From: Bacillota bacterium
Lineage (GTDB): Bacteria; Bacillota; Sulfobacillia; RBS10-35; JAJYVN01
Reading direction: 5' to 3'
Assembly: GCA_021797775.1 (NCBI GenBank)
Contig: JAJZZC010000005.1
Span: 5,719-69,718 of the forward strand
DNA: 64,000 nt
Translations under genes and position numbers: made by a program
Shown here: piece by piece, positions 16,117 through 29,338 of the stretch
Layout: each line of letters begins with the position of its first letter
Numbering within the stretch: position 1 is the stretch's first letter
Notes under the pieces: generated by a model
Seen by the model: only the letters and a program-made list of their open reading frames with translations
What the model was told of the DNA's origin: nothing
Databases searched by the model: none

Positions 16117-16191
16117 GGCGACGTAGCCAAGTGGTAAGGCAAGGGTCTGCAAAACCCTTATGCGGCGGTTCGAATCCGCCCGTCGCCTCCA
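16117..16191 (+). tRNA. tRNA-Cys (anticodon GCA), CCA encoded; integration target
   Basis: Acceptor GGCGACG/CGTCGCC, anticodon loop CTGCAAA, T arm GGCGGTTCGAATCCGCC. Its 3' 49 nt are duplicated at 28536-28587. Confidence 0.9.
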
Positions 16192-16194
16192 GAG
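16143..16194. repeat. att-type direct repeat, left copy (inside intact tRNA-Cys)
   Basis: The 52 bp GGGTCTGCAAAACCCTTATGCGGCGGTTCGAATCCGCCCGTCGCCTCCAGAG is identical to 28536-28587 (checked base by base). Confidence 0.9.
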
Positions 16195-16245: not shown

Positions 16246-16386
16246 GTCCCAGTCTGCCGGAGTCGGCTGTTTTCGGGCTGATTCTGGCAGGGTTGGGCTA
16301 CAATCCGGCTACATCGGCGGCTACCGGGCGAGGGCGGCGGGAGCGCACGGCCGTTGGCGTGGCGGGCGGTGGGCGAGGGCGGCCGG

Positions 16387-18138: not shown

Positions 18139-18167
18139 TTGCTATCCTACGCCAAACGCAGTAGCAT
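18139..18167 (+). promoter_or_regulatory. Candidate sigma-70-like promoter for the island replication operon
   Basis: TTGCTA-17 nt-TAGCAT in the 80-bp XRE/DUF3987 divergent spacer, about 38 nt upstream of ATG 18205 (RBS AAGGGGGG). Confidence 0.35.
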
Positions 18168-18204
18168 CGCTACATACGGCGTTCGCCGTAAGGGGGGCGG
18201 TGCG

Positions 18205-19563
18205 ATGAGCCAGCTAAGAGACCGCATGGCCGGCGACGACTTGGCGGCCCGCCGCGCCGCCCGTGCCGAGGAGACCGGGGGCGCCGAGGAGGTCGCGGCC
18301 GAGGTTTGGCCCGACGCGGTAGACGGCGCCGCCTACCATGGTGTCATCGGCGACCTGGTACGGTGCGTGGCCCCGCACACCGAGGCTGACGCGCACGCCC
18401 TGCTGGTGCAGGCCCTGGTGGCTGCTGGGTCTGCCGTTGGCCGCGCGGCGCACGTCATGGCCGACGGCGCGCGTCACGGCTGCAATCTCTACGCCGGGAT
18501 CGTGGGCACCACGTCCAAGGGGCGCAAAGGCACATCGTGGGCGCGCGTCCGGGCGCCGCTGTGCGCGGCGGACGAATCGTGGGGCGAGCGCATCTCCTCC
18601 GGGCTGTCGAGCGGCGAGGGGCTGATTTGGGCCGTCCGTGACAAGATTGTTAAGCAAGAACCAGTGAAACAAAACGGCCGCGTGGTCGGGTATGACACCG
18701 TAGAGGTGGACCCAGGCATTCCGGACAAGCGCCTGCTGGTGGTCGAATCTGAGCTATCTGGTACGTTGCGTACCATGGCGCGCGACGGAAACTCCCTGTC
18801 GTCCATCATTCGCGATGCCTTCGACCATGGCGACCTGCGGACCCTGACCAAGAACTCCCCCGCCGTGGCGACCGGGGCGCATATCTCCATCATCGGGCAC
18901 ACGACGAAGGACGAACTCCTGCACTACCTGGGCGATACGGAGGCCGCGAATGGCTTCGCGAATCGCTTCCTGTGGGTCTGCGCCAGGCGGTCCAAGGTCC
19001 TGCCGTACGGCGGAAACATATCGGCAGAGGACTTCGCGCCCATCGTCGCGCGGCTGACGCAGGCCCTGCATTATGCCCGCGACGTAGGGGAGATCACACA
19101 CGCCCCGGAGACGCAGGCCCTATGGCGCGCCGTCTATCCCAATCTCAGCGACGGCCGCCCTGGGTTGCTGGGATGCGTTACGAATCGCGCGGAGGCCCTG
19201 GTGCTCAGGCTGTCTGCTATCTATGCCGTGTTGGACTGTACGGACATCGTGAGCCCAGAACATTTGCGCGCGGCGCTGGCTGTTTGGGATTATTGCATGG
19301 CATCGGCACGGTTCGTCTTCGGCGAAACCCTGGGCGACCCGGTGGCGGATGAACTGTTCCGCGCGCTGGAGGCGGCGGGGGAGAAGGGCATGACGCGCAC
19401 CGAGGCGCGGGAGCTATTCCAGCGCAACCAACCAAGCGCCCGCATCGCGGCCGCCCTGGGCGCCCTGTCGGCGGTGGGCAAGGCCGCGTGCCGCATGGAG
19501 CCGCCTTCCAGCGGCAGGGGGCGCAATACGGAGCGGTGGTTCGCTACGCGTTTTACGCGGTAA
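18205..19563 (+). CDS. DUF3987 (YfjI-like) island/phage replication-associated protein
   Basis: HGCNLYAGIVGTTSKGRKGTSW and LLVVESELSGTLRTMARDGNSLSSIIRDAFDHGDL match my recollection of DUF3987 conserved blocks. Sits beside the primase/helicase genes. Confidence 0.65.
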   Translation: MSQLRDRMAGDDLAARRAARAEETGGAEEVAAEVWPDAVDGAAYHGVIGDLVRCVAPHTEADAHALLVQALVAAGSAVGRAAHVMADGARHGCNLYAGIVGTTSKGRKGTSWARVRAPLCAADESWGERISSGLSSGEGLIWAVRDKIVKQEPVKQNGRVVGYDTVEVDPGIPDKRLLVVESELSGTLRTMARDGNSLSSIIRDAFDHGDLRTLTKNSPAVATGAHISIIGHTTKDELLHYLGDTEAANGFANRFLWVCARRSKVLPYGGNISAEDFAPIVARLTQALHYARDVGEITHAPETQALWRAVYPNLSDGRPGLLGCVTNRAEALVLRLSAIYAVLDCTDIVSPEHLRAALAVWDYCMASARFVFGETLGDPVADELFRALEAAGEKGMTRTEARELFQRNQPSARIAAALGALSAVGKAACRMEPPSSGRGRNTERWFATRFTR

Positions 19564-19734
19564 ACGCGGTTGGTTCTGTCCCAAGGCGTTGCGGGCGCGG
19601 AGGGGGTACGCGGTTTGTACGCGGTTTCTGGACCCGGACCCTCGCGCGGGCGAACCGCGTAGAAACCGCGTAGGCGCCGCGCGACGGGAACTCGTAGAGC
19701 CCCAAGGAACCGCGTAAAGGGCGTCAACCGCGTA
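19554..19734. repeat. Iteron array: 4 direct TACGCGGTT-type repeats facing 4 inverted AACCGCGTA repeats (putative island ori)
   Basis: Forward copies at 19554, 19563, 19607 and 19618; inverted copies at 19653, 19663, 19708 and 19726. Symmetric about ~19640. Lies between the DUF3987 gene and the primase module. Confidence 0.7.
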
Positions 19735-19767: not shown

Positions 19768-20004
19768 GTGACTTTCCTTGAAATGGCAGACAGGGCCCTT
19801 GAGAAGGCGGGCGCCGAGGCCGTGGCCGCCGCGATTGTGGAGGCCGTCAACGCCGGCCGCGACACGTCCGAGGCCGCGGCCCCGCTGGCGACCATGAGTC
19901 GCGAGGGGCGGCTGCGGGTGTTCCGCCTGCTGCAGGAGGCCATGCCCGAGCGGACGGGGCGCGCGCGCGTCTCCCCTACGGGGGGCGTTGCCCGTGCGCG
20001 CTGA
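19768..20004 (+). CDS. Small hypothetical island protein
   Basis: ORF on the island strand directly after the iterons. No family recognised and the start is uncertain. Confidence 0.35.
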   Translation: MTFLEMADRALEKAGAEAVAAAIVEAVNAGRDTSEAAAPLATMSREGRLRVFRLLQEAMPERTGRARVSPTGGVARAR

Positions 20005-20263
20005 CGTGGCTGCCTGGCTAGACGCGCGCTGCGTCCGGTCGCCCCGCGCGTGGGGAGAGGCCGACCGGCTGCACACGGACTTCACTGCCTGCGGCGGCCG
20101 GCTGGAGCGCGAAGCCATGCTGGCCGAACTGACCACACATGGTCGCGCATGGCTCGGGCCGGCCGGCCTGGTGTGCGGCGTGGGGCTGCTGCAGGACTGG
20201 CCGGCCGAGGTCGATGCGGCCCGCCAGGCCCGGGGCACGGGGCGTGGTCACCGTGGCGGGTAG
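19988..20263 (+). CDS. Small hypothetical island protein
   Basis: VAAWLDARCVRSPRAWGEADRLHTDFTACGG... resembles short regions seen near phage/plasmid primases. Overlaps its neighbours by a few codons. Confidence 0.4.
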   Translation: MPVRADVAAWLDARCVRSPRAWGEADRLHTDFTACGGRLEREAMLAELTTHGRAWLGPAGLVCGVGLLQDWPAEVDAARQARGTGRGHRGG

Positions 20264-21284
20264 CCCGTGCCTTCGTGCGGCCCTGGCGTACTTGCGGCGC
20301 GGCTGGTCCGTTGTCCCCTGCGGGTCGGCCAAGCGCCCCCTGCTGCCCTGGGCGCCCTACCAGGCCCACCGCGCCACGGAGGCCGAGGTCCGCCAATGGT
20401 GGACCCGCTGGCCGCAGGCGGCGGTTGCGATAGTCACAGGTGTCGTGTCCGGCATCGTGGTCGTGGACCTGGACCGTGGCCATGCGGACGGCGCGGACGG
20501 GCTGGCGTCCATCCGCGCTGCGGGACTCGACCTGCCGGCGACCCGCTGCGTGCGGACACCGAGCGGCGGCACCCATGCCTACTATCTGCATCCCGGGCGG
20601 ACGGTGCCGAACGCGGCGCGGCTGCGCGGTCTGGCCGGCGTAGACATGCGCGGAGACGGCGGCTACGCGCTGGCGCCACCCTCGCGGACGGCGGATGGCG
20701 GCTACGCGGCGGTGCCGGAGACCCGCGACCTGCCGATAGCGCCCCTGCCGGCGTGGGTCCTGGAGGGCCGCGACCATGGTGGTGCCCCTGCCCGGACGGC
20801 CGACGAGTGGGCGCCCGTGTGGACTGACCCCTGCCCCGAGGGCCGGCGCAACGCCACCTGCGCCCGCCTGGCTGGCCACCTGGCCGCCCACGGCATCGGC
20901 CAGATGGAGGCCGAGGCGCTGCTGCTGCGGTGGGCGGCCGACCGCTGCGACCCGCCGATGGCCCCGGCCGAGGTGTCACGCACCGTGGCGAGCATTTACC
21001 GCGCCCACGGGCGGCACGTGGAGCCCCTGCCCGACCCGGCGCCCATGCCCGAGGCCGAGCAGGTGTGGGACGCCATGGAGCCCCGCCTGCGGGCGCGTCT
21101 GGCGAGCCGCGATGGCCGCGTGCGGGCCGGCGGCCTGGCGGACGCGCTGCGGACGGGAATGGCGCCCGAGGTGGCCCATGCCATTGCCCTTGACCTGTCA
21201 GACGGCGATGCGGAGGAAGCGGGCCGCGCCCTGCGCTGGGCGATGCGCGCGGCCAGGGAGGAGCGTGGGCGCCATGCCGGCTGA
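20244..21284 (+). CDS. Bifunctional DNA primase/polymerase (Prim-Pol) with PriCT-type C-terminal domain
   Basis: LRRGWSVVPC, the IVVVDLD metal motif, TPSGGTHAYY and GDGGYALAPPS. Then RNATCARLAGHLAAHGIGQMEAEALLLRWAADRCDPPM (PriCT-like). GTG start is approximate. Confidence 0.85.
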   Translation: MVTVAGSPCLRAALAYLRRGWSVVPCGSAKRPLLPWAPYQAHRATEAEVRQWWTRWPQAAVAIVTGVVSGIVVVDLDRGHADGADGLASIRAAGLDLPATRCVRTPSGGTHAYYLHPGRTVPNAARLRGLAGVDMRGDGGYALAPPSRTADGGYAAVPETRDLPIAPLPAWVLEGRDHGGAPARTADEWAPVWTDPCPEGRRNATCARLAGHLAAHGIGQMEAEALLLRWAADRCDPPMAPAEVSRTVASIYRAHGRHVEPLPDPAPMPEAEQVWDAMEPRLRARLASRDGRVRAGGLADALRTGMAPEVAHAIALDLSDGDAEEAGRALRWAMRAAREERGRHAG

Positions 21285-22944
21285 CGCTCGCCAAGCCCTG
21301 CGACCCTACCAGGAGGAGGCCCGCGCTGCGGTGGCGTCCCGCATCGCGGCGGGGAGGCGCGCGCTGCTGACCGTGCTCCCCACGGGCACCGGGAAGACCG
21401 TGCTGTTCGCCGCAGAGGTCGTAGATCGCACGCGGGACGGCGGCCGAGCCCTGGTGCTCGCCCACCGCGACGAGTTGATCCGCCAACCCACCGAGGCCCT
21501 GCGGCGCGCGGCCCCCGGGCTGGAAGTCGGCACGGTCAAAGCTGAGCGCAACGAGGTCGGCTGCCGCGTGGTCGTGGCGTCGGTGCCGACCTTGGCCCGC
21601 CCGGAGCGGCTGGACGCCCTGCGGGCCGCCGGCCCCCTGGCCCTGGTCATCACGGACGAAGCCCACCATGCGGTGGCCCCCATGTACGGCCGCATCTATG
21701 CCGCCCTGGCGGCCGGCAAGACCGGCGGCCCGCTGCACCTGGGGTACACCGCGACCCCGCAGCGCGGCGACGGCGCGGGCCTGTCCGACGTGTTCGAGGA
21801 GGTCGCGTTCTCCCGCGACATCCGCCAGATGGTGACGGAAGGGTGGCTGACGGAGCCCCGTGGTCGCATCGTGGCGGCGGGGCTCGCCCTGGACGGCGTG
21901 CGGCGCAACGATTCCGGCGACTACTCGGATACGGGACTGGACGAGGCCATGGGCGCGCCCGCCGTGGAGGCCATCGCCCAAGCCTGGTGGCGGCACGCCC
22001 GGGACCGCGTAACCGTTGCGTTCACCCCATCGGTGCGAACCGCGCAGGCCCTGGCTGATGCCGCGAACCGCGTTGCCGGCGCGCCCGTGGCGGCCGAGGT
22101 GGACGGCGGGACGGACCCGGGCGCGCGCCGCGCGCTGCTGGCCAGCTTCAAGGCCGGCGACGTGCGGCTGCTGGCGAACTGCGGCGTGCTGACCGAGGGA
22201 TTCGACGCGCCGAACATCACCTGCGTTCTGGTGGCCCGTCCCACGCGGTCTGAAGGGCTCTACACGCAGATGGTGGGACGCGGGCTGCGTCTCTGGCCGG
22301 GTAAGACCGATTGCCTAGTGCTGGACGTGACGGGCGAGAGCGCCCACTTTTCGCTCTGCGTTCTGCCCACGCTGTTCGGCCTGCCGGCGCGCGACCTGGC
22401 GGGCCGGTCGGTGTCGGAGGCCATGGAGGAGGCGGCGGCGGAAGCGCGGCGCGGTGGTCTGCACTTGGCGCGCATGGAGGCGGACGTTGGCCTGCTGCAG
22501 AGGCGGTGCCGCTGGGCATGGGTGGAGGTTGAGGCGGGTCGTCTCTACTCGGTGGACCTGGGGCGGGACGCGGCTGGCCTGGCCGTGATGGCCGTTGTCC
22601 GCGCCCTGTACCGTGGCCGCGCAGGACCGTGGACCGCAGAAGTGCGGCGCATCCGCGACGGCAGGACGGAGGCCGCAGAGGTCCTCTGGCAGGGCGAGGG
22701 CGACCGCGCGGCCGAGGACGCCTTCGGCGCGGCGGAGACATGGCTGGCCACGCAACCGGCGGCGGCCCGTCTGGCGAGCGCGGAGCGCGGCTGGCGGTCG
22801 GCGACCGGCGCGGCCCCGGCGACGGCGGCGCAGATCGACGCCCTGCGGAAGTGGCGAATCGTCGCTCCGGACGGCTGCACCAAGGCCCATGCCAGTGACC
22901 TGCTGGCGCGCGCCATCGCGGCGGTGCGGCTGCGGGGTGCGTGA
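21274..22944 (+). CDS. SF2 DEAD/DEAH-box helicase (ResIII-type) with ~170-aa C-terminal extension
   Basis: LRPYQEEA, LPTGTGKT (motif I), VITDEAHH (II), GYTATP (III), QMVGRGLR (VI). ATG 21274 overlaps the primase stop. Confidence 0.85.
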   Translation: MPADARQALRPYQEEARAAVASRIAAGRRALLTVLPTGTGKTVLFAAEVVDRTRDGGRALVLAHRDELIRQPTEALRRAAPGLEVGTVKAERNEVGCRVVVASVPTLARPERLDALRAAGPLALVITDEAHHAVAPMYGRIYAALAAGKTGGPLHLGYTATPQRGDGAGLSDVFEEVAFSRDIRQMVTEGWLTEPRGRIVAAGLALDGVRRNDSGDYSDTGLDEAMGAPAVEAIAQAWWRHARDRVTVAFTPSVRTAQALADAANRVAGAPVAAEVDGGTDPGARRALLASFKAGDVRLLANCGVLTEGFDAPNITCVLVARPTRSEGLYTQMVGRGLRLWPGKTDCLVLDVTGESAHFSLCVLPTLFGLPARDLAGRSVSEAMEEAAAEARRGGLHLARMEADVGLLQRRCRWAWVEVEAGRLYSVDLGRDAAGLAVMAVVRALYRGRAGPWTAEVRRIRDGRTEAAEVLWQGEGDRAAEDAFGAAETWLATQPAAARLASAERGWRSATGAAPATAAQIDALRKWRIVAPDGCTKAHASDLLARAIAAVRLRGA

Positions 22945-27235: not shown

Positions 27236-28408
27236 GTGTACCTGCGCCAGCGTGGCGAGAAGAACGGCAAGCCCGTCTGGTCGCTCCGGTTCGAGAAGCC
27301 GGACCCCGGGACCGGCAAGCGTGCCTACGTCTACGAGACGTTCCACGGCAGCAAGCGCGAGGCCGAACGCCGATGGATCGTGCGGGAAGCGGAGATCAAG
27401 AGGGCTGGCGCCGGCTATGCGGCACCGTCCAAGCAGACGCTCGCGGCCTATCTGCGCGCGTGGCTGCGGGACCAGGAGCCAAACTGGAAGAGAACCACGC
27501 TCGCCAGTTACCGGACGCACGTAGAACTGCACATCATCCCCGCCCTGGGCGCCGTCCCCCTGTCGGGTTTGACCCCGCCGCAGGTGGCCGCGTGGCAGGC
27601 GGACATGCTGCGGAAACCGGGCCGGCGGGGCAACGCCCTCTCGCCGAAGCGCGTCCTGAATGCGTACCGGGCGCTGCACACGGCTATGGAGGAGGCCGTA
27701 CGACTAGAACTCATCCCGTCGAACCCCGTGGGGAAGGTGAGACCCCCACGCCAGGCGCCCGAAGAGGTCGTTGCGCTGGACGCTGACCAGGTGAGCGCCC
27801 TCATGGCTACGGTGGCCGGGCACCGGCTAGAGGCCATGTTCGCCGCGGCGTGGCAGACAGGGTTGCGCATGGGCGAGCTACTTGGGCTGCGATGGGAGGA
27901 CGTGGACCTGGGCGGCGCGACGCTGCGAGTTGCCCAGGGGGTGGCAAGCACAGGCGGCCCAGCATTCGTCCAGGCCCCGAAAAGCAAGCTGTCGGCGCGG
28001 ACCATCGCGCTGCCGGCGGCCGTGACCGCAGCCCTGCAGGCGCGCCGCGAGCGGCAGACAGAGGAGCGGCAGAAGGCGGGCGGGCGGTGGCGCGACCACG
28101 GGTTGGTGTTCCCCACGTCCAGGGGTACGCCCGTCCTGCCGTCCAGCATGGAGCGCACCTGGTACACGGTGCGGGACCGGGCCGGGCTGCCCGCCTATGG
28201 CTTCCATTGCCTCCGTCACACCTACGCGAGTATGGCGCTGTCTGCCGGCGTGCCGCTGGAACTGGTGTCGGAGAACCTGGGGCACGCCGGCCCGGGCTTT
28301 ACCAAGCGCGTCTACGCGAAGTACCTGCTGGACGCGAAGCGGGCGGGCGCGGACATCATGGACGAAGTGGCGCGACGGATGAAGGCCGCGGGCGCGGTCG
28401 ATGAGTGA
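27236..28408 (+). CDS. int: Tyrosine-type site-specific recombinase (phage integrase)
   Basis: N-terminal SAM-like/core-binding region. Catalytic blocks LQTGLRMGELLGLRWEDV, FHCLRHTYASMAL and LGHAGPGFTKRVYAKY (R..HxxR..Y). Lies 128 bp from the right att repeat. Confidence 0.9.
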   Translation: MYLRQRGEKNGKPVWSLRFEKPDPGTGKRAYVYETFHGSKREAERRWIVREAEIKRAGAGYAAPSKQTLAAYLRAWLRDQEPNWKRTTLASYRTHVELHIIPALGAVPLSGLTPPQVAAWQADMLRKPGRRGNALSPKRVLNAYRALHTAMEEAVRLELIPSNPVGKVRPPRQAPEEVVALDADQVSALMATVAGHRLEAMFAAAWQTGLRMGELLGLRWEDVDLGGATLRVAQGVASTGGPAFVQAPKSKLSARTIALPAAVTAALQARRERQTEERQKAGGRWRDHGLVFPTSRGTPVLPSSMERTWYTVRDRAGLPAYGFHCLRHTYASMALSAGVPLELVSENLGHAGPGFTKRVYAKYLLDAKRAGADIMDEVARRMKAAGAVDE

Positions 28409-28535
28409 TGCGGCCACGTTCGTCGGCGGTCGGCACGGATGGCCCGCGAAACCACTCCGGCTACAAACCGGCTACATTTGGGGTCGTCGCGGCCAAGAAG
28501 CCGCGTAACGACGCGCTTTTTTGGCCGCAGTGGTT

Positions 28536-28587
28536 GGGTCTGCAAAACCCTTATGCGGCGGTTCGAATCCGCCCGTCGCCTCCAGAG
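28536..28587. repeat. att-type direct repeat, right copy (partial tRNA-Cys 3' end)
   Basis: Identical 52 bp to 16143-16194. There is no 5' half of a tRNA upstream of it. Confidence 0.9.
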
Positions 28588-29261: not shown

Positions 29262-29338
29262 GGGCGGTTAGCTCAGTCGGCTAGAGCGCGTGATTGACGT
29301 TCACGAGGTCAGTGGTTCAAGTCCACTACCGCCCACCA
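29262..29338 (+). tRNA. tRNA-Val (anticodon GAC), CCA encoded
   Basis: Acceptor GGGCGGT/ACCGCCC, D arm GCTCAGTCGGCTAGAGC, anticodon loop TTGACGT, T arm CAGTGGTTCAAGTCCACTA. A CCCGCC-GAAA-GGCGGG hairpin follows. Confidence 0.9.

What the first reader, a model, noticed from the sequence alone, without database searches (positions are those of the whole stretch)
19554..19734. Symmetric 4+4 iteron array, the likely replication origin of the island
Four forward copies of (T/A)ACGCGGTT occur as two tandem pairs, at 19554/19563 and 19607/19618. They face four inverted copies of AACCGCGTA at 19653/19663 and 19708/19726, around a GC-rich centre near 19640.

The array starts inside the last codons of the DUF3987 gene and sits just upstream of the Prim-Pol/helicase genes. 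Satellite and plasmid origins sit in the same place relative to their initiator genes. Such a regular structure is very unlikely by chance.
Basis: seen in the sequence. Interest (0 to 1): 0.6.

Follow-up and report, generated by a model that had tools for sequence, protein, structure and literature searches.

The report
Helicase-matched iteron origin of an island
The repeats are real: a mirror-symmetric set of ten 9-base sites that the neighbouring MCM-like helicase most likely reads with its DNA-binding tail, which makes this the probable replication start site of a 12.4-kb integrated mobile element, a known kind of origin (as in staphylococcal islands) in a helicase family where none has been described.

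Summary
The array spans 19546-19733 and has 5+5 sites, not 4+4. Outer triplets have a 9-bp period and inner pairs an 11-bp period. Everything is symmetric about 19639.5. The 8-mer occurs at the frequency expected from base composition genome-wide, but this is its only cluster.

The array lies in a 12.4-kb island bounded by a 52-bp tRNA-Cys direct repeat. It starts in the last codons of a DUF3987 gene, whose product models as an MCM-like ATPase with a C-terminal winged helix.

Across 78 homologous loci from many phyla, 56 carry 9-bp-phased RCGNNNWAA triplets at the same gene end, against 2 of 390 control windows. The unit sequence covaries with two winged-helix residues:
- Unit base 1 is A with Asn and G with His/Lys/Gln (52/52).
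- Unit base 5 is A with Ser and C/G mostly with Arg.

The base-1 rule held in separately fetched viral contigs. Both rules held in the closest relatives; one of these has the same 3-35-2/2-35-3 layout with a different unit.

Best reading (about 0.7): a SaPI/PICI-type Rep-ori module, that is, a self-loading helicase origin. Unlike SaPIs it has no AT-rich centre. Replication itself is untested. It is a new variant of a known kind, and of moderate interest.

The parts
16143..16194 (+). attL: 52-bp direct repeat, the 3' half of tRNA-Cys (16117-16191) plus 3 bp
   Evidence: Exact 52-bp match to 28536-28587; tRNA-Cys found by ARAGORN.
18139..19563 (+). DUF3987 helicase gene: MCM-like AAA+ core with a C-terminal winged helix. 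The start codon is uncertain, because the first ~56 aa are unconserved and modelled with low confidence.
   Evidence: Pfam DUF3987 E 1.6e-12. Motifs consistent with Walker A (GRKGT) and Walker B (DKRLLVVESE) contain invariant residues (my own motif assignment). AF2 pLDDT 81, and Foldseek top hits are MCM at E 2e-8. DUF3987 is placed in SF6 with a C-terminal wHTH in PMC4889955, and helicase activity was shown for a PriCT-DUF3987 protein in PMC11724360.
19339..19545 (+). Coding region of the winged-helix C-terminal domain (residues 401-469). The covarying residues are R424 (helix 2) and N430 (the turn before helix 3).
   Evidence: AF2 models. Foldseek of the domain alone gives ArsR/MarR/TFE-type winged helices at TM 0.7-0.76. 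Mutual-information scan.
19546..19572 (+). Outer-left iteron triplet with a 9-bp period: ACGCGTTTT ACGCGGTAA ACGCGGTTG. It overlaps the last codons and the stop codon of the helicase gene.
19608..19627 (+). Inner-left iteron pair with an 11-bp period: ACGCGGTTT gt ACGCGGTTT
19628..19651 (.). GC-rich centre of the dyad (about 83% GC). There is no AT-rich unwinding element.
19652..19671 (-). Inner-right iteron pair (inverted) with an 11-bp period
19707..19733 (-). Outer-right iteron triplet (inverted) with a 9-bp period. The middle copy is degenerate (ACGCCCTTT).
19768..20004 (+). Small ORF (78 aa, GTG start) beginning MTFLEMA. The N-terminal motif M-x-x-Y/F-L-E/D-I/M-A is conserved downstream of the array in 47 of 79 relatives (80 loci fetched; one had no stop codon); the rest of the protein varies.
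20139..21284 (+). Prim-Pol + PriCT_1 primase-polymerase gene
   Evidence: Pfam E 3e-37 and 3e-12.
21281..22944 (+). SF2 helicase gene (ResIII + Helicase_C). The start is approximate.
   Evidence: Pfam. L151 has the same gene order.
27236..28408 (+). Tyrosine integrase gene
   Evidence: Pfam Phage_integrase E 7e-21.
28536..28587 (+). attR: second copy of the 52-bp repeat

Best explanation
The array is the set of binding sites (iterons) for the C-terminal winged-helix domain of the DUF3987 helicase encoded immediately upstream. It most likely serves as the replication origin of the 12.4-kb tRNA-Cys integrative element.

Proposed mechanism:
1. After excision, helicase subunits dock through their winged helices onto the two mirror-image half-sites. 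Each half-site is a 9-bp-phased triplet plus an 11-bp-phased pair.
2. One hexamer assembles on each half, facing opposite ways.
3. The duplex is opened, and the element's own Prim-Pol primes synthesis.

What is shown here:
- The sites exist and are unique to this locus.
- Their position and layout are conserved across phyla.
- The unit sequence covaries with two winged-helix residues.

What is inferred:
- Physical binding.
- Hexamer loading and melting.
- Replication.
For: 1. The array is unique and highly non-random.

2. The upstream protein is a helicase with a DNA-binding tail.
- It models as an MCM-like ATPase plus a winged helix.
- This agrees with PMC4889955 (DUF3987 is SF6 with a C-terminal wHTH).
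- PMC11724360 shows that a PriCT-DUF3987 protein is a helicase that binds its PrimPol.

3. Position and layout are conserved.
- A run of at least 3 RCG-phased 9-mers lies within -60..+260 of the helicase stop in 56/78 loci from many phyla, against 2/390 control windows.
- Runs on both strands occur in 28/78 loci against 0/390 (sequences).

4. Residue-base covariation.
- An unbiased scan of every residue against every unit position puts N430 with unit base 1 first (z 40) and R424 with unit base 5 second (z 15). Both residues are in the helix-turn-helix.
- A pairs with Asn in 30/30 loci. G pairs with His/Lys/Gln in 22/22.
- Ser occurs only with units whose bases 4-5 are AA (21/23). Arg accompanies 18 of the 26 units with C or G at base 5 and is never found with A there.
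- Base 1 changes at least 15 times on the helicase-core tree. The Asn/His switch recurs within five different base-4/5 backgrounds: AA, AC, CG, CA and AG.

5. The base-1 rule holds in a separate set of IMG/VR loci.
- Of 18 automatically called arrays, 16 fit it: 6 A units with Asn, and 10 G units with His (9) or Arg (1).
- The 2 exceptions share a unit whose phase is ambiguous.

6. The closest relatives obey the rule.
- L152 (64% identity) has the same 3-35-2 / 2-35-3 layout but the unit ACGAAAGAA, with Ser and Asn in the domain.
- L151 has Ser and His, and its only cluster of the predicted GCGAA units (9- and 11-bp spacing) lies elsewhere on the element.

7. Published precedent. SaPI/PICI Rep helicases (SF3 or MCM-like) bind iterons through a C-terminal winged helix. 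Those iterons begin at the end of the rep gene and form two opposed sets, and that region is the experimentally proven origin (PMC9371898; bioRxiv 10.64898/2026.10.17.759575; PMC6092414).
Against: - No replication, excision or binding data exist for this element.
- There is no AT-rich unwinding region. The dyad centre is 83% GC, and the array is only modestly less GC-rich (66%) than the island (73%). SaPI/PICI origins have an AT-rich centre.
- On well-supported branches only 4 independent pairs could be counted.
- The domain's coding region and the array are physically adjacent, so part of the association could reflect joint inheritance as a cassette.
- One close relative (L151) has no array at this position, only a one-sided half-array elsewhere.
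- Binding sites just upstream of the next gene's ribosome-binding site could also, or instead, be regulatory.
Confidence: 0.72

Rival explanations
1. The array is an operator, not an origin. The helicase's winged helix binds it only to control expression of the downstream small ORF / Prim-Pol / SF2-helicase genes, by roadblock or autoregulation. Replication starts elsewhere, or the element does not replicate.
For: In most relatives the right arm ends 10-20 bp before the ribosome-binding site and ATG of the next gene. Plasmid initiators are known to autoregulate through inverted iteron-like repeats (general knowledge). No AT-rich melting region is present.
Against: - The array follows the helicase gene whatever lies downstream, and many loci lack the conserved small ORF.
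- In L151 the units sit 1.6 kb away, in a different context.
- No sigma-70-like promoter was detected in the region.
- A replicative helicase with ten phased sites in two opposed halves matches proven SaPI origins (PMC9371898).
- The two roles are not exclusive.
Confidence: 0.13
2. The selected feature is a nucleic-acid hairpin. The long imperfect palindrome would act as an RNA element (terminator, processing or stability signal) or as a single-strand DNA priming signal.
For: The arms 19545-19626 and 19653-19734 are 71% complementary. The RNA fold energy is -104 kcal/mol with z -2.2.
Against: - In 23 loci with 3+3 arrays, hairpin-partner units are no more alike (1.84 mismatches) than non-partner units (1.51). 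Complementarity is just a by-product of repeating one unit.
- A hairpin does not explain the 9-bp internal periodicity or the covariation with protein residues.
- No T-tract terminator follows the palindrome as a whole; the scan's one weak terminator-like hit (19547-19568, 1 found against 0.6 expected in shuffles) lies inside the outer-left triplet. There is no Rfam match.
Confidence: 0.05
3. The sites belong to another function or another protein: a partition centromere, a packaging site, or sites bound by the small downstream protein or by Prim-Pol.
For: Phased direct and inverted short repeats also typify centromere-like and pac sites (general knowledge). The adjacent small ORF is conserved only in its N-terminal motif, and its role is unknown.
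Against: - The strongest covariation in the whole helicase maps to its helix-turn-helix.
- The small ORF's body is not conserved.
- No ParA/ParB, terminase or capsid genes were found in the island.
- Prim-Pol lies upstream or is fused in other loci, while the array stays at the helicase 3' end.
Confidence: 0.05

Closest known systems
SaPI / PICI Pri-Rep-ori modules (SaPI1, SaPI2/SaPIbov1 with the MCM-like Rep2, SaPI5 PriRep5; E. coli EcCICFT073)
   Same: - The helicase-initiator has a C-terminal winged helix.
- The iterons begin at the very end of the rep reading frame.
- There are two sets in opposite orientation, about 5-6 per side.
- Iteron specificity resides in the C-terminal domain.
- The module sits on a small integrase-bearing island (PMC9371898; bioRxiv 10.64898/2026.10.17.759575; PMC6092414).
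   Different: - The helicase belongs to a different family (DUF3987), with no detectable sequence relative in the PDB.
- Units are 9-bp-phased RCGNNNWAA triplets rather than scattered 5-7-mers.
- There is no AT-rich centre (83% GC).
- The covarying residues lie in the helix-turn-helix, whereas PriRep5 reads bases with its beta-wing.
- Prim-Pol lies downstream of the origin here.
- The one tested DUF3987 helicase runs 5'-3' (PMC11724360), whereas SaPI Reps run 3'-5'.
AgaPP/AgaPH: PrimPol plus PriCT-DUF3987 helicase of pAgo-bearing integrative elements (PMC11724360)
   Same: It has the same helicase family with a small C-terminal domain. It partners with a PrimPol, sits on a tRNA-integrated element, and was proposed as the element's replication machinery.
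   Different: That paper describes no origin or iterons. Here the helicase lacks the PriCT fusion, and the cis-site is identified.
Phage P4 alpha protein with ori and crr
   Same: A primase-helicase binds short iterons in direct and inverted orientation through a C-terminal DNA-binding domain, on an integrative satellite (general knowledge; contrasted with PICIs in PMC6092414).
   Different: P4 alpha is an SF3 helicase fused to a primase. Its iteron sequence differs and it has two separated cis regions. There is no sequence relationship.
SV40 large T antigen / papillomavirus E1 core origins
   Same: It works alike: short repeats arranged as a palindrome are thought to nucleate two oppositely oriented hexameric helicases without a separate loader (general knowledge).
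   Different: They are eukaryotic viral SF3 helicases with a different origin-binding fold. This is an analogy only.

Membership tests
SaPI/PICI-type Rep-ori (self-loading helicase origin) | Initiator is a hexameric-type helicase (SF3 or SF6) with a C-terminal winged-helix domain | tested here: met
   AF2 model with MCM top hits. The C-terminal domain models as a winged helix.
SaPI/PICI-type Rep-ori (self-loading helicase origin) | Iterons lie immediately 3' of, or overlap the end of, the rep reading frame | tested here: met
   The first unit starts 18 bp before the end of the stop codon. The same holds in 56/78 relatives.
SaPI/PICI-type Rep-ori (self-loading helicase origin) | Two sets of iterons in opposite orientation | tested here: met
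   5 forward and 5 inverted units, symmetric about 19639.5.
SaPI/PICI-type Rep-ori (self-loading helicase origin) | AT-rich region between the two iteron sets (melting site) | tested here: not met
   The centre is 83% GC and the spacers 74% GC. None of the 12 lowest-GC 40-bp windows listed for the island overlaps the array.
SaPI/PICI-type Rep-ori (self-loading helicase origin) | Iteron sequence is specific to the cognate Rep C-terminal domain | tested here: met
   Residue-base covariation, the separately fetched set and the closest relatives. This is computational only.
SaPI/PICI-type Rep-ori (self-loading helicase origin) | The fragment drives Rep-dependent autonomous replication, and Rep binds and melts it | not testable with these tools
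   This needs EMSA and ori cloning.
Phage satellite (PICI/PICMI/P4-like) as the element type | Integrase plus AlpA/regulator plus primase-helicase, together with packaging or capsid-redirection genes or a demonstrated helper phage | tested here: inconclusive
   The integrase and the replication module are present. No hits to packaging or capsid families were found, and the other island ORFs searched (several of the small ORFs between the SF2 helicase and the integrase were not) match nothing in Pfam or PHROGs.
Classical iteron plasmid origin (Rep_3 / RepA-pi-RepE type) | 17-22-bp direct iterons, a Rep_3-type initiator, DnaA boxes and an AT-rich DUE | tested here: not met
   The units have a 9-bp period and are arranged as a dyad. 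No Rep_3 hit was found. There is no DnaA box in the island and no AT-rich DUE.
Genome-wide REP-like repeat | The motif is dispersed in many copies across the genome | tested here: not met
   176 copies against 184 expected from composition, with a single cluster.

The most novel reading that the evidence does not exclude
The window holds one instance of a very widespread origin class that I did not find described in the papers searched. In this reading, stand-alone or primase-fused DUF3987 (MCM-like) helicases across many bacterial phyla carry their own origin written into and just after the gene's 3' end.

The origin is built of 9-bp-phased RCGNNNWAA units. Their sequence can be predicted from two winged-helix residues:
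- Asn gives A and His/Arg/Lys gives G at base 1.
- Ser gives A and Arg gives a C/G pair at base 5.

Such a code would define orthogonal replicon specificities and would let origins be called from protein sequence in thousands of uncultured mobile elements. These origins would fire without a conventional AT-rich unwinding element.
Probability: 0.45. Interest if true: 0.7.

Novelty: new variant of a known kind. Interest (0 to 1): 0.5.

Why it matters
DUF3987 helicases are among the commonest replication proteins of integrated mobile elements, satellites (the PICMI search model uses this Pfam family) and some phages. Yet no origin or DNA-recognition rule turned up for them in my literature searches.

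If the array is their origin, it would allow three things:
- The cis-acting replication site of thousands of uncultured elements could be located from sequence alone.
- The two-residue code offers a directly testable model of how self-loading MCM-like helicases choose their start site.
- The orthogonal helicase/iteron pairs could become compatible replicon parts.

For this genome, it marks the tRNA-Cys island as a probably self-replicating element rather than inert cargo.

Tried and rejected
- Generic repeat: rejected by the whole-genome count.
- RNA family: no Rfam match.
- Promoter or terminator: no sigma-70-like promoter. One weak terminator-like hit lies inside the first triplet and is no better than shuffled sequence.
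- Hairpin selection: tested across 23 loci and not supported.
- DnaA boxes: none in the island.
- Circular relatives: none of 26 whole contigs had terminal overlaps.
- Annotated replicons: the plasmid and phage collections hold only hits of 28% identity or less, so no annotated origin could be borrowed.
- Solved structures: no sequence relative in the PDB.
- Function of the other island ORFs: no Pfam or PHROG hits.
- L151 as a counter-example: at first it appeared to lack any array. A search for the unit predicted from its protein then found a half-array elsewhere on the element.
Full report
**Observation**

- The forward copy at 19554 is TACGCGGTA (one mismatch).
- The second inverted copy starts at 19664, not 19663.
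- Two degenerate copies were missed: TACGCGTTT at 19545, and AAGGGCGTC at 19717 (reverse complement GACGCCCTT).

In the register that fits all relatives (a 9-mer beginning RCG), the layout is as follows.

| Block | Coordinates | Period or length |
|---|---|---|
| Outer-left triplet | 19546-19572 | 9-bp period |
| Gap | | 35 bp |
| Inner-left pair | 19608-19627 | 11-bp period |
| Centre | 19628-19651 | 24 bp |
| Inner-right inverted pair | 19652-19671 | 11-bp period |
| Gap | | 35 bp |
| Outer-right inverted triplet | 19707-19733 | 9-bp period |

- Both the inner and outer sets are centred on 19639.5.
- The 8-mer ACGCGGTT occurs 12 times in the window against 2.7 expected, and seven of those lie here.
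- In the whole 5.55-Mb, 72% GC assembly it occurs 176 times against 184 expected from composition. This is the only place with three or more copies close together.
- It is therefore real, non-random and not a dispersed repeat.

**Setting**

- A perfect 52-bp direct repeat (16143-16194 and 28536-28587) copies the 3' half of tRNA-Cys. It brackets a 12.4-kb element.
- On the + strand the element carries these genes:
  - a DUF3987 gene (18139-19563)
  - the array
  - a 78-aa ORF (19768-20004)
  - Prim-Pol + PriCT_1 (20139-21284)
  - an SF2 helicase (to 22944)
  - a run of ORFs, those searched having no family match
  - a tyrosine integrase (27236-28408)
- Nothing in the island hit capsid, packaging, conjugation or partition families.

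**The upstream protein**

- The AlphaFold model (pLDDT 81) has an ATPase core whose best PDB matches are MCM subunits (E 2e-8). Residues 401-469 form a winged helix.
- Folded alone, that domain gives pLDDT 84 and matches ArsR/MarR/TFE-type winged helices at TM 0.7-0.76.
- This agrees with the literature:
  - DUF3987 proteins are distant MCM relatives (SF6) with a C-terminal wHTH, and are usually linked to AEP or DnaG primases (PMC4889955, PMC5862659).
  - A PriCT-DUF3987 protein is an active 5'-3' helicase that binds its PrimPol (PMC11724360).
  - None of these papers describes an origin or iterons.

**Relatives**

- The protein has thousands of homologues. I fetched 80 loci from one-genome-per-species contigs spanning Acidobacteriota, Planctomycetota, Chloroflexota, Nitrospirota, Bacillota and others.
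- Printing the DNA around each stop codon shows a strikingly constant picture:
  - about three abutting 9-bp units of the form RCG-NNN-WAA, beginning between -35 and +20 of the stop
  - a short spacer
  - about three inverted units
  - in many loci, a ribosome-binding site and the ATG of the next gene
- With one uniform detector, a run of at least three RCG-phased 9-mers occurs within -60..+260 of the stop in 56 of 78 loci, against 2 of 390 control windows from the same loci. Runs on both strands occur in 28 of 78 against 0 of 390 (a cruder test agrees).
- The core of the unit differs between loci. Examples are ACGAA, ACGAC, ACGCG/ACGCC, GCGAA, GCGAC, GCGCG, ACGAG and GCGCA.

**Covariation**

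- For 52 loci with clear two-sided arrays, I aligned the helicases and compared every residue with every unit position. The two strongest signals in the whole 474-aa protein both lie in the helix-turn-helix:
  - window N430 with unit base 1 (z 40, complete mutual information)
  - R424 with unit base 5 (z 15)
- Base 1:
  - A goes with Asn in 30/30 loci.
  - G goes with His (20), Lys (1) or Gln (1) in 22/22.
- Base 5:
  - Ser occurs only with units whose bases 4-5 are AA (21/23).
  - Arg accompanies 18 of the 26 units with C or G at base 5 and is never found with A there.
  - Tyr goes with CA (2/2).
  - A Planctomycete type, ACGAC(T/G)T, goes with His (5/5).
- This is not one clade. On a tree built from the helicase core alone, base 1 changes at least 15 times. 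Strongly supported sister pairs differ concordantly: L050/L055, L040/L072 and L034/L066.
- The Asn/His switch recurs inside five different base-4/5 backgrounds. Inheritance of a few linked cassettes would not produce that pattern.
- The pairings fit amino-acid/base preferences recalled from general knowledge, not tested here: Asn with A, and His, Arg or Lys with G.
- Caveats:
  - On well-supported branches only four independent contrasts could be counted.
  - The domain's coding region lies just 100-130 bp from the array, so linkage contributes to the association.

**Out-of-sample checks**

- A separate scan of IMG/VR contigs gave 67 loci, and I analysed the best 51. Of the 18 arrays called automatically:
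  - 6 A units pair with Asn
  - 9 G units pair with His, and one with Arg
  - 2 break the rule. Both have the unit ACGGATTCG, whose phase is ambiguous.
  - By eye, about eight further loci fit.
- The closest relative with sequence downstream is L152 (64% identity).
  - It has the same extended architecture as the window: a triplet at 9 bp, a 35-bp gap, a pair at 10 bp, a 36-bp centre, an inverted pair, a 35-bp gap and an inverted triplet.
  - After that come GGAGG and ATG-ACG-TTC-CTG (MTFL...).
  - Its unit is ACGAAAGAA, and its domain reads TELS...FSGN, that is Ser and Asn as the rule requires.
  - The 35-bp gaps are conserved in length but not in sequence, which points to a geometric constraint.
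- L151 (63% identity) shares the window's gene order, including Prim-Pol and the SF2 helicase, but has no array at this position. Its helicase stop overlaps the small ORF's start.
  - Its domain has Ser and His, which predicts GCGAA units.
  - The only cluster of such units on the 9.2-kb contig is at 1946-2026: GCGAAAGAA GCGAAGTAG ..., a gap of about 34 bp, then GCGAAAGAAgtGCGAAAGAA.
  - That is a left half-array 1.6 kb upstream of the helicase gene, with no inverted partner.
  - So the sites follow the protein, not the neighbouring gene.

**Rival readings**

- Hairpin.
  - The palindrome can fold (-104 kcal/mol, z -2.2).
  - Across 23 loci with 3+3 arrays, units that would pair in a hairpin are no more alike (1.84 mismatches) than units that would not (1.51). 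Arm complementarity is therefore a by-product of repeating one unit.
  - There is no Rfam hit, and no T-tract terminator follows the palindrome as a whole; the one weak terminator-like hit inside the first triplet is no better than shuffled sequence.
- Operator. A purely regulatory role is not excluded and could coexist with an origin. However, no promoter-like site was found, the array is kept whatever gene follows, and in L151 it sits elsewhere.
- Other proteins or functions. Partition or packaging roles lack any supporting genes.

**Comparison with known systems**

- The closest match is the SaPI/PICI Pri-Rep-ori module.
  - Rep is a self-loading SF3 or MCM-like helicase whose C-terminal winged helix binds 5-7-bp iterons.
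  - The iterons start at the end of the rep frame and form two opposed sets.
  - That region melts and drives autonomous replication (PMC9371898; PMC6092414; bioRxiv 10.64898/2026.10.17.759575).
- Four of five testable defining features are met here.
- The fifth, an AT-rich centre, is not met:
  - The centre is 83% GC.
  - The spacers are 74% GC.
  - The only A/T-enriched parts are the tails of the units themselves.
- Other differences:
  - The helicase family differs (DUF3987, with no sequence relative in the PDB).
  - The units are strictly phased at 9 bp.
  - The covarying residues lie in the helix-turn-helix, whereas PriRep5 reads bases with its wing.
  - Prim-Pol is downstream of the array.
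- Classical Rep_3 iteron origins and REP elements are excluded.

**Verdict**

- That these are the cognate sites of the helicase's winged helix is, on computational evidence, very likely (about 0.9).
- That they constitute the element's replication origin is the best reading (about 0.7), by analogy with proven systems.
- Earlier notes of this scan report similar DUF3987-linked arrays in many other genomes. I treat them as leads, not evidence. They do suggest the class is common.
- I rate it a new variant of a known kind and moderately interesting. The added value here is the explicit two-position residue-base rule and its out-of-sample confirmation.

Noticed in passing
window 16305-16313, 28457-28465, 28468-28476: The only three exact copies of CCGGCTACA in the window lie about 110 bp inside attL and 60-80 bp inside attR. 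They are plausible arm-type integrase or excisionase binding sites.
   Followed up: partly
window 19768-20004 and the ORF after the array in L004-L083: The gene after the array starts with a conserved peptide, M-x-x-Y/F-L-E/D-I/M-A, in 47 of 79 relatives. Synonymous sites vary, so the conservation is at the protein level. The rest of the protein is unrelated in length and sequence, and there are no family hits. It could be a short docking motif for the helicase or primase.
   Followed up: partly
L151:1946-2026: The close relative L151 lacks the array after the helicase gene. It has a one-sided half-array (GCGAAAGAA units, a 9-bp then an 11-bp period) 1.6 kb upstream of that gene, with the sequence predicted from its winged-helix residues. 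It may be a relocated or decaying origin.
   Followed up: partly
window 19573-19607 and 19672-19706; L152:2226-2260 and 2335-2369: The spacers between the outer triplets and the inner pairs are exactly 35 bp in both the window and L152, although their sequences are unrelated. CCCAAGG occurs as a direct repeat in both window spacers. The meaning of this geometry is unexplained.
   Followed up: no
C-terminal tails of helicases in L004-L083: The first units overlap the reading frame, so many helicases end in repetitive tails such as TTKTT, ATKAT or TKETNET. These tails are simply the translated iterons, and some frames read through the whole left arm.
   Followed up: no
23 loci with 3+3 arrays: Units at the same ordinal position along the + strand in the two arms are the most alike (for example the first left unit with the first right unit, 1.13 mismatches), not the hairpin partners. 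This suggests position-specific unit variants, and it is unexplained.
   Followed up: no
window 30000-52000: A block of lower GC (0.61-0.69 against about 0.72-0.75) begins just right of tRNA-Val(GAC) at 29262-29338. It may be a second, larger foreign region.
   Followed up: no
window 18139-18306: The first ~56 residues of the DUF3987 ORF are unconserved and modelled with low confidence. The true start may be the in-frame Met at residue 31 (MSQLRDRM..., near 18229), not TTG 18139.
   Followed up: no
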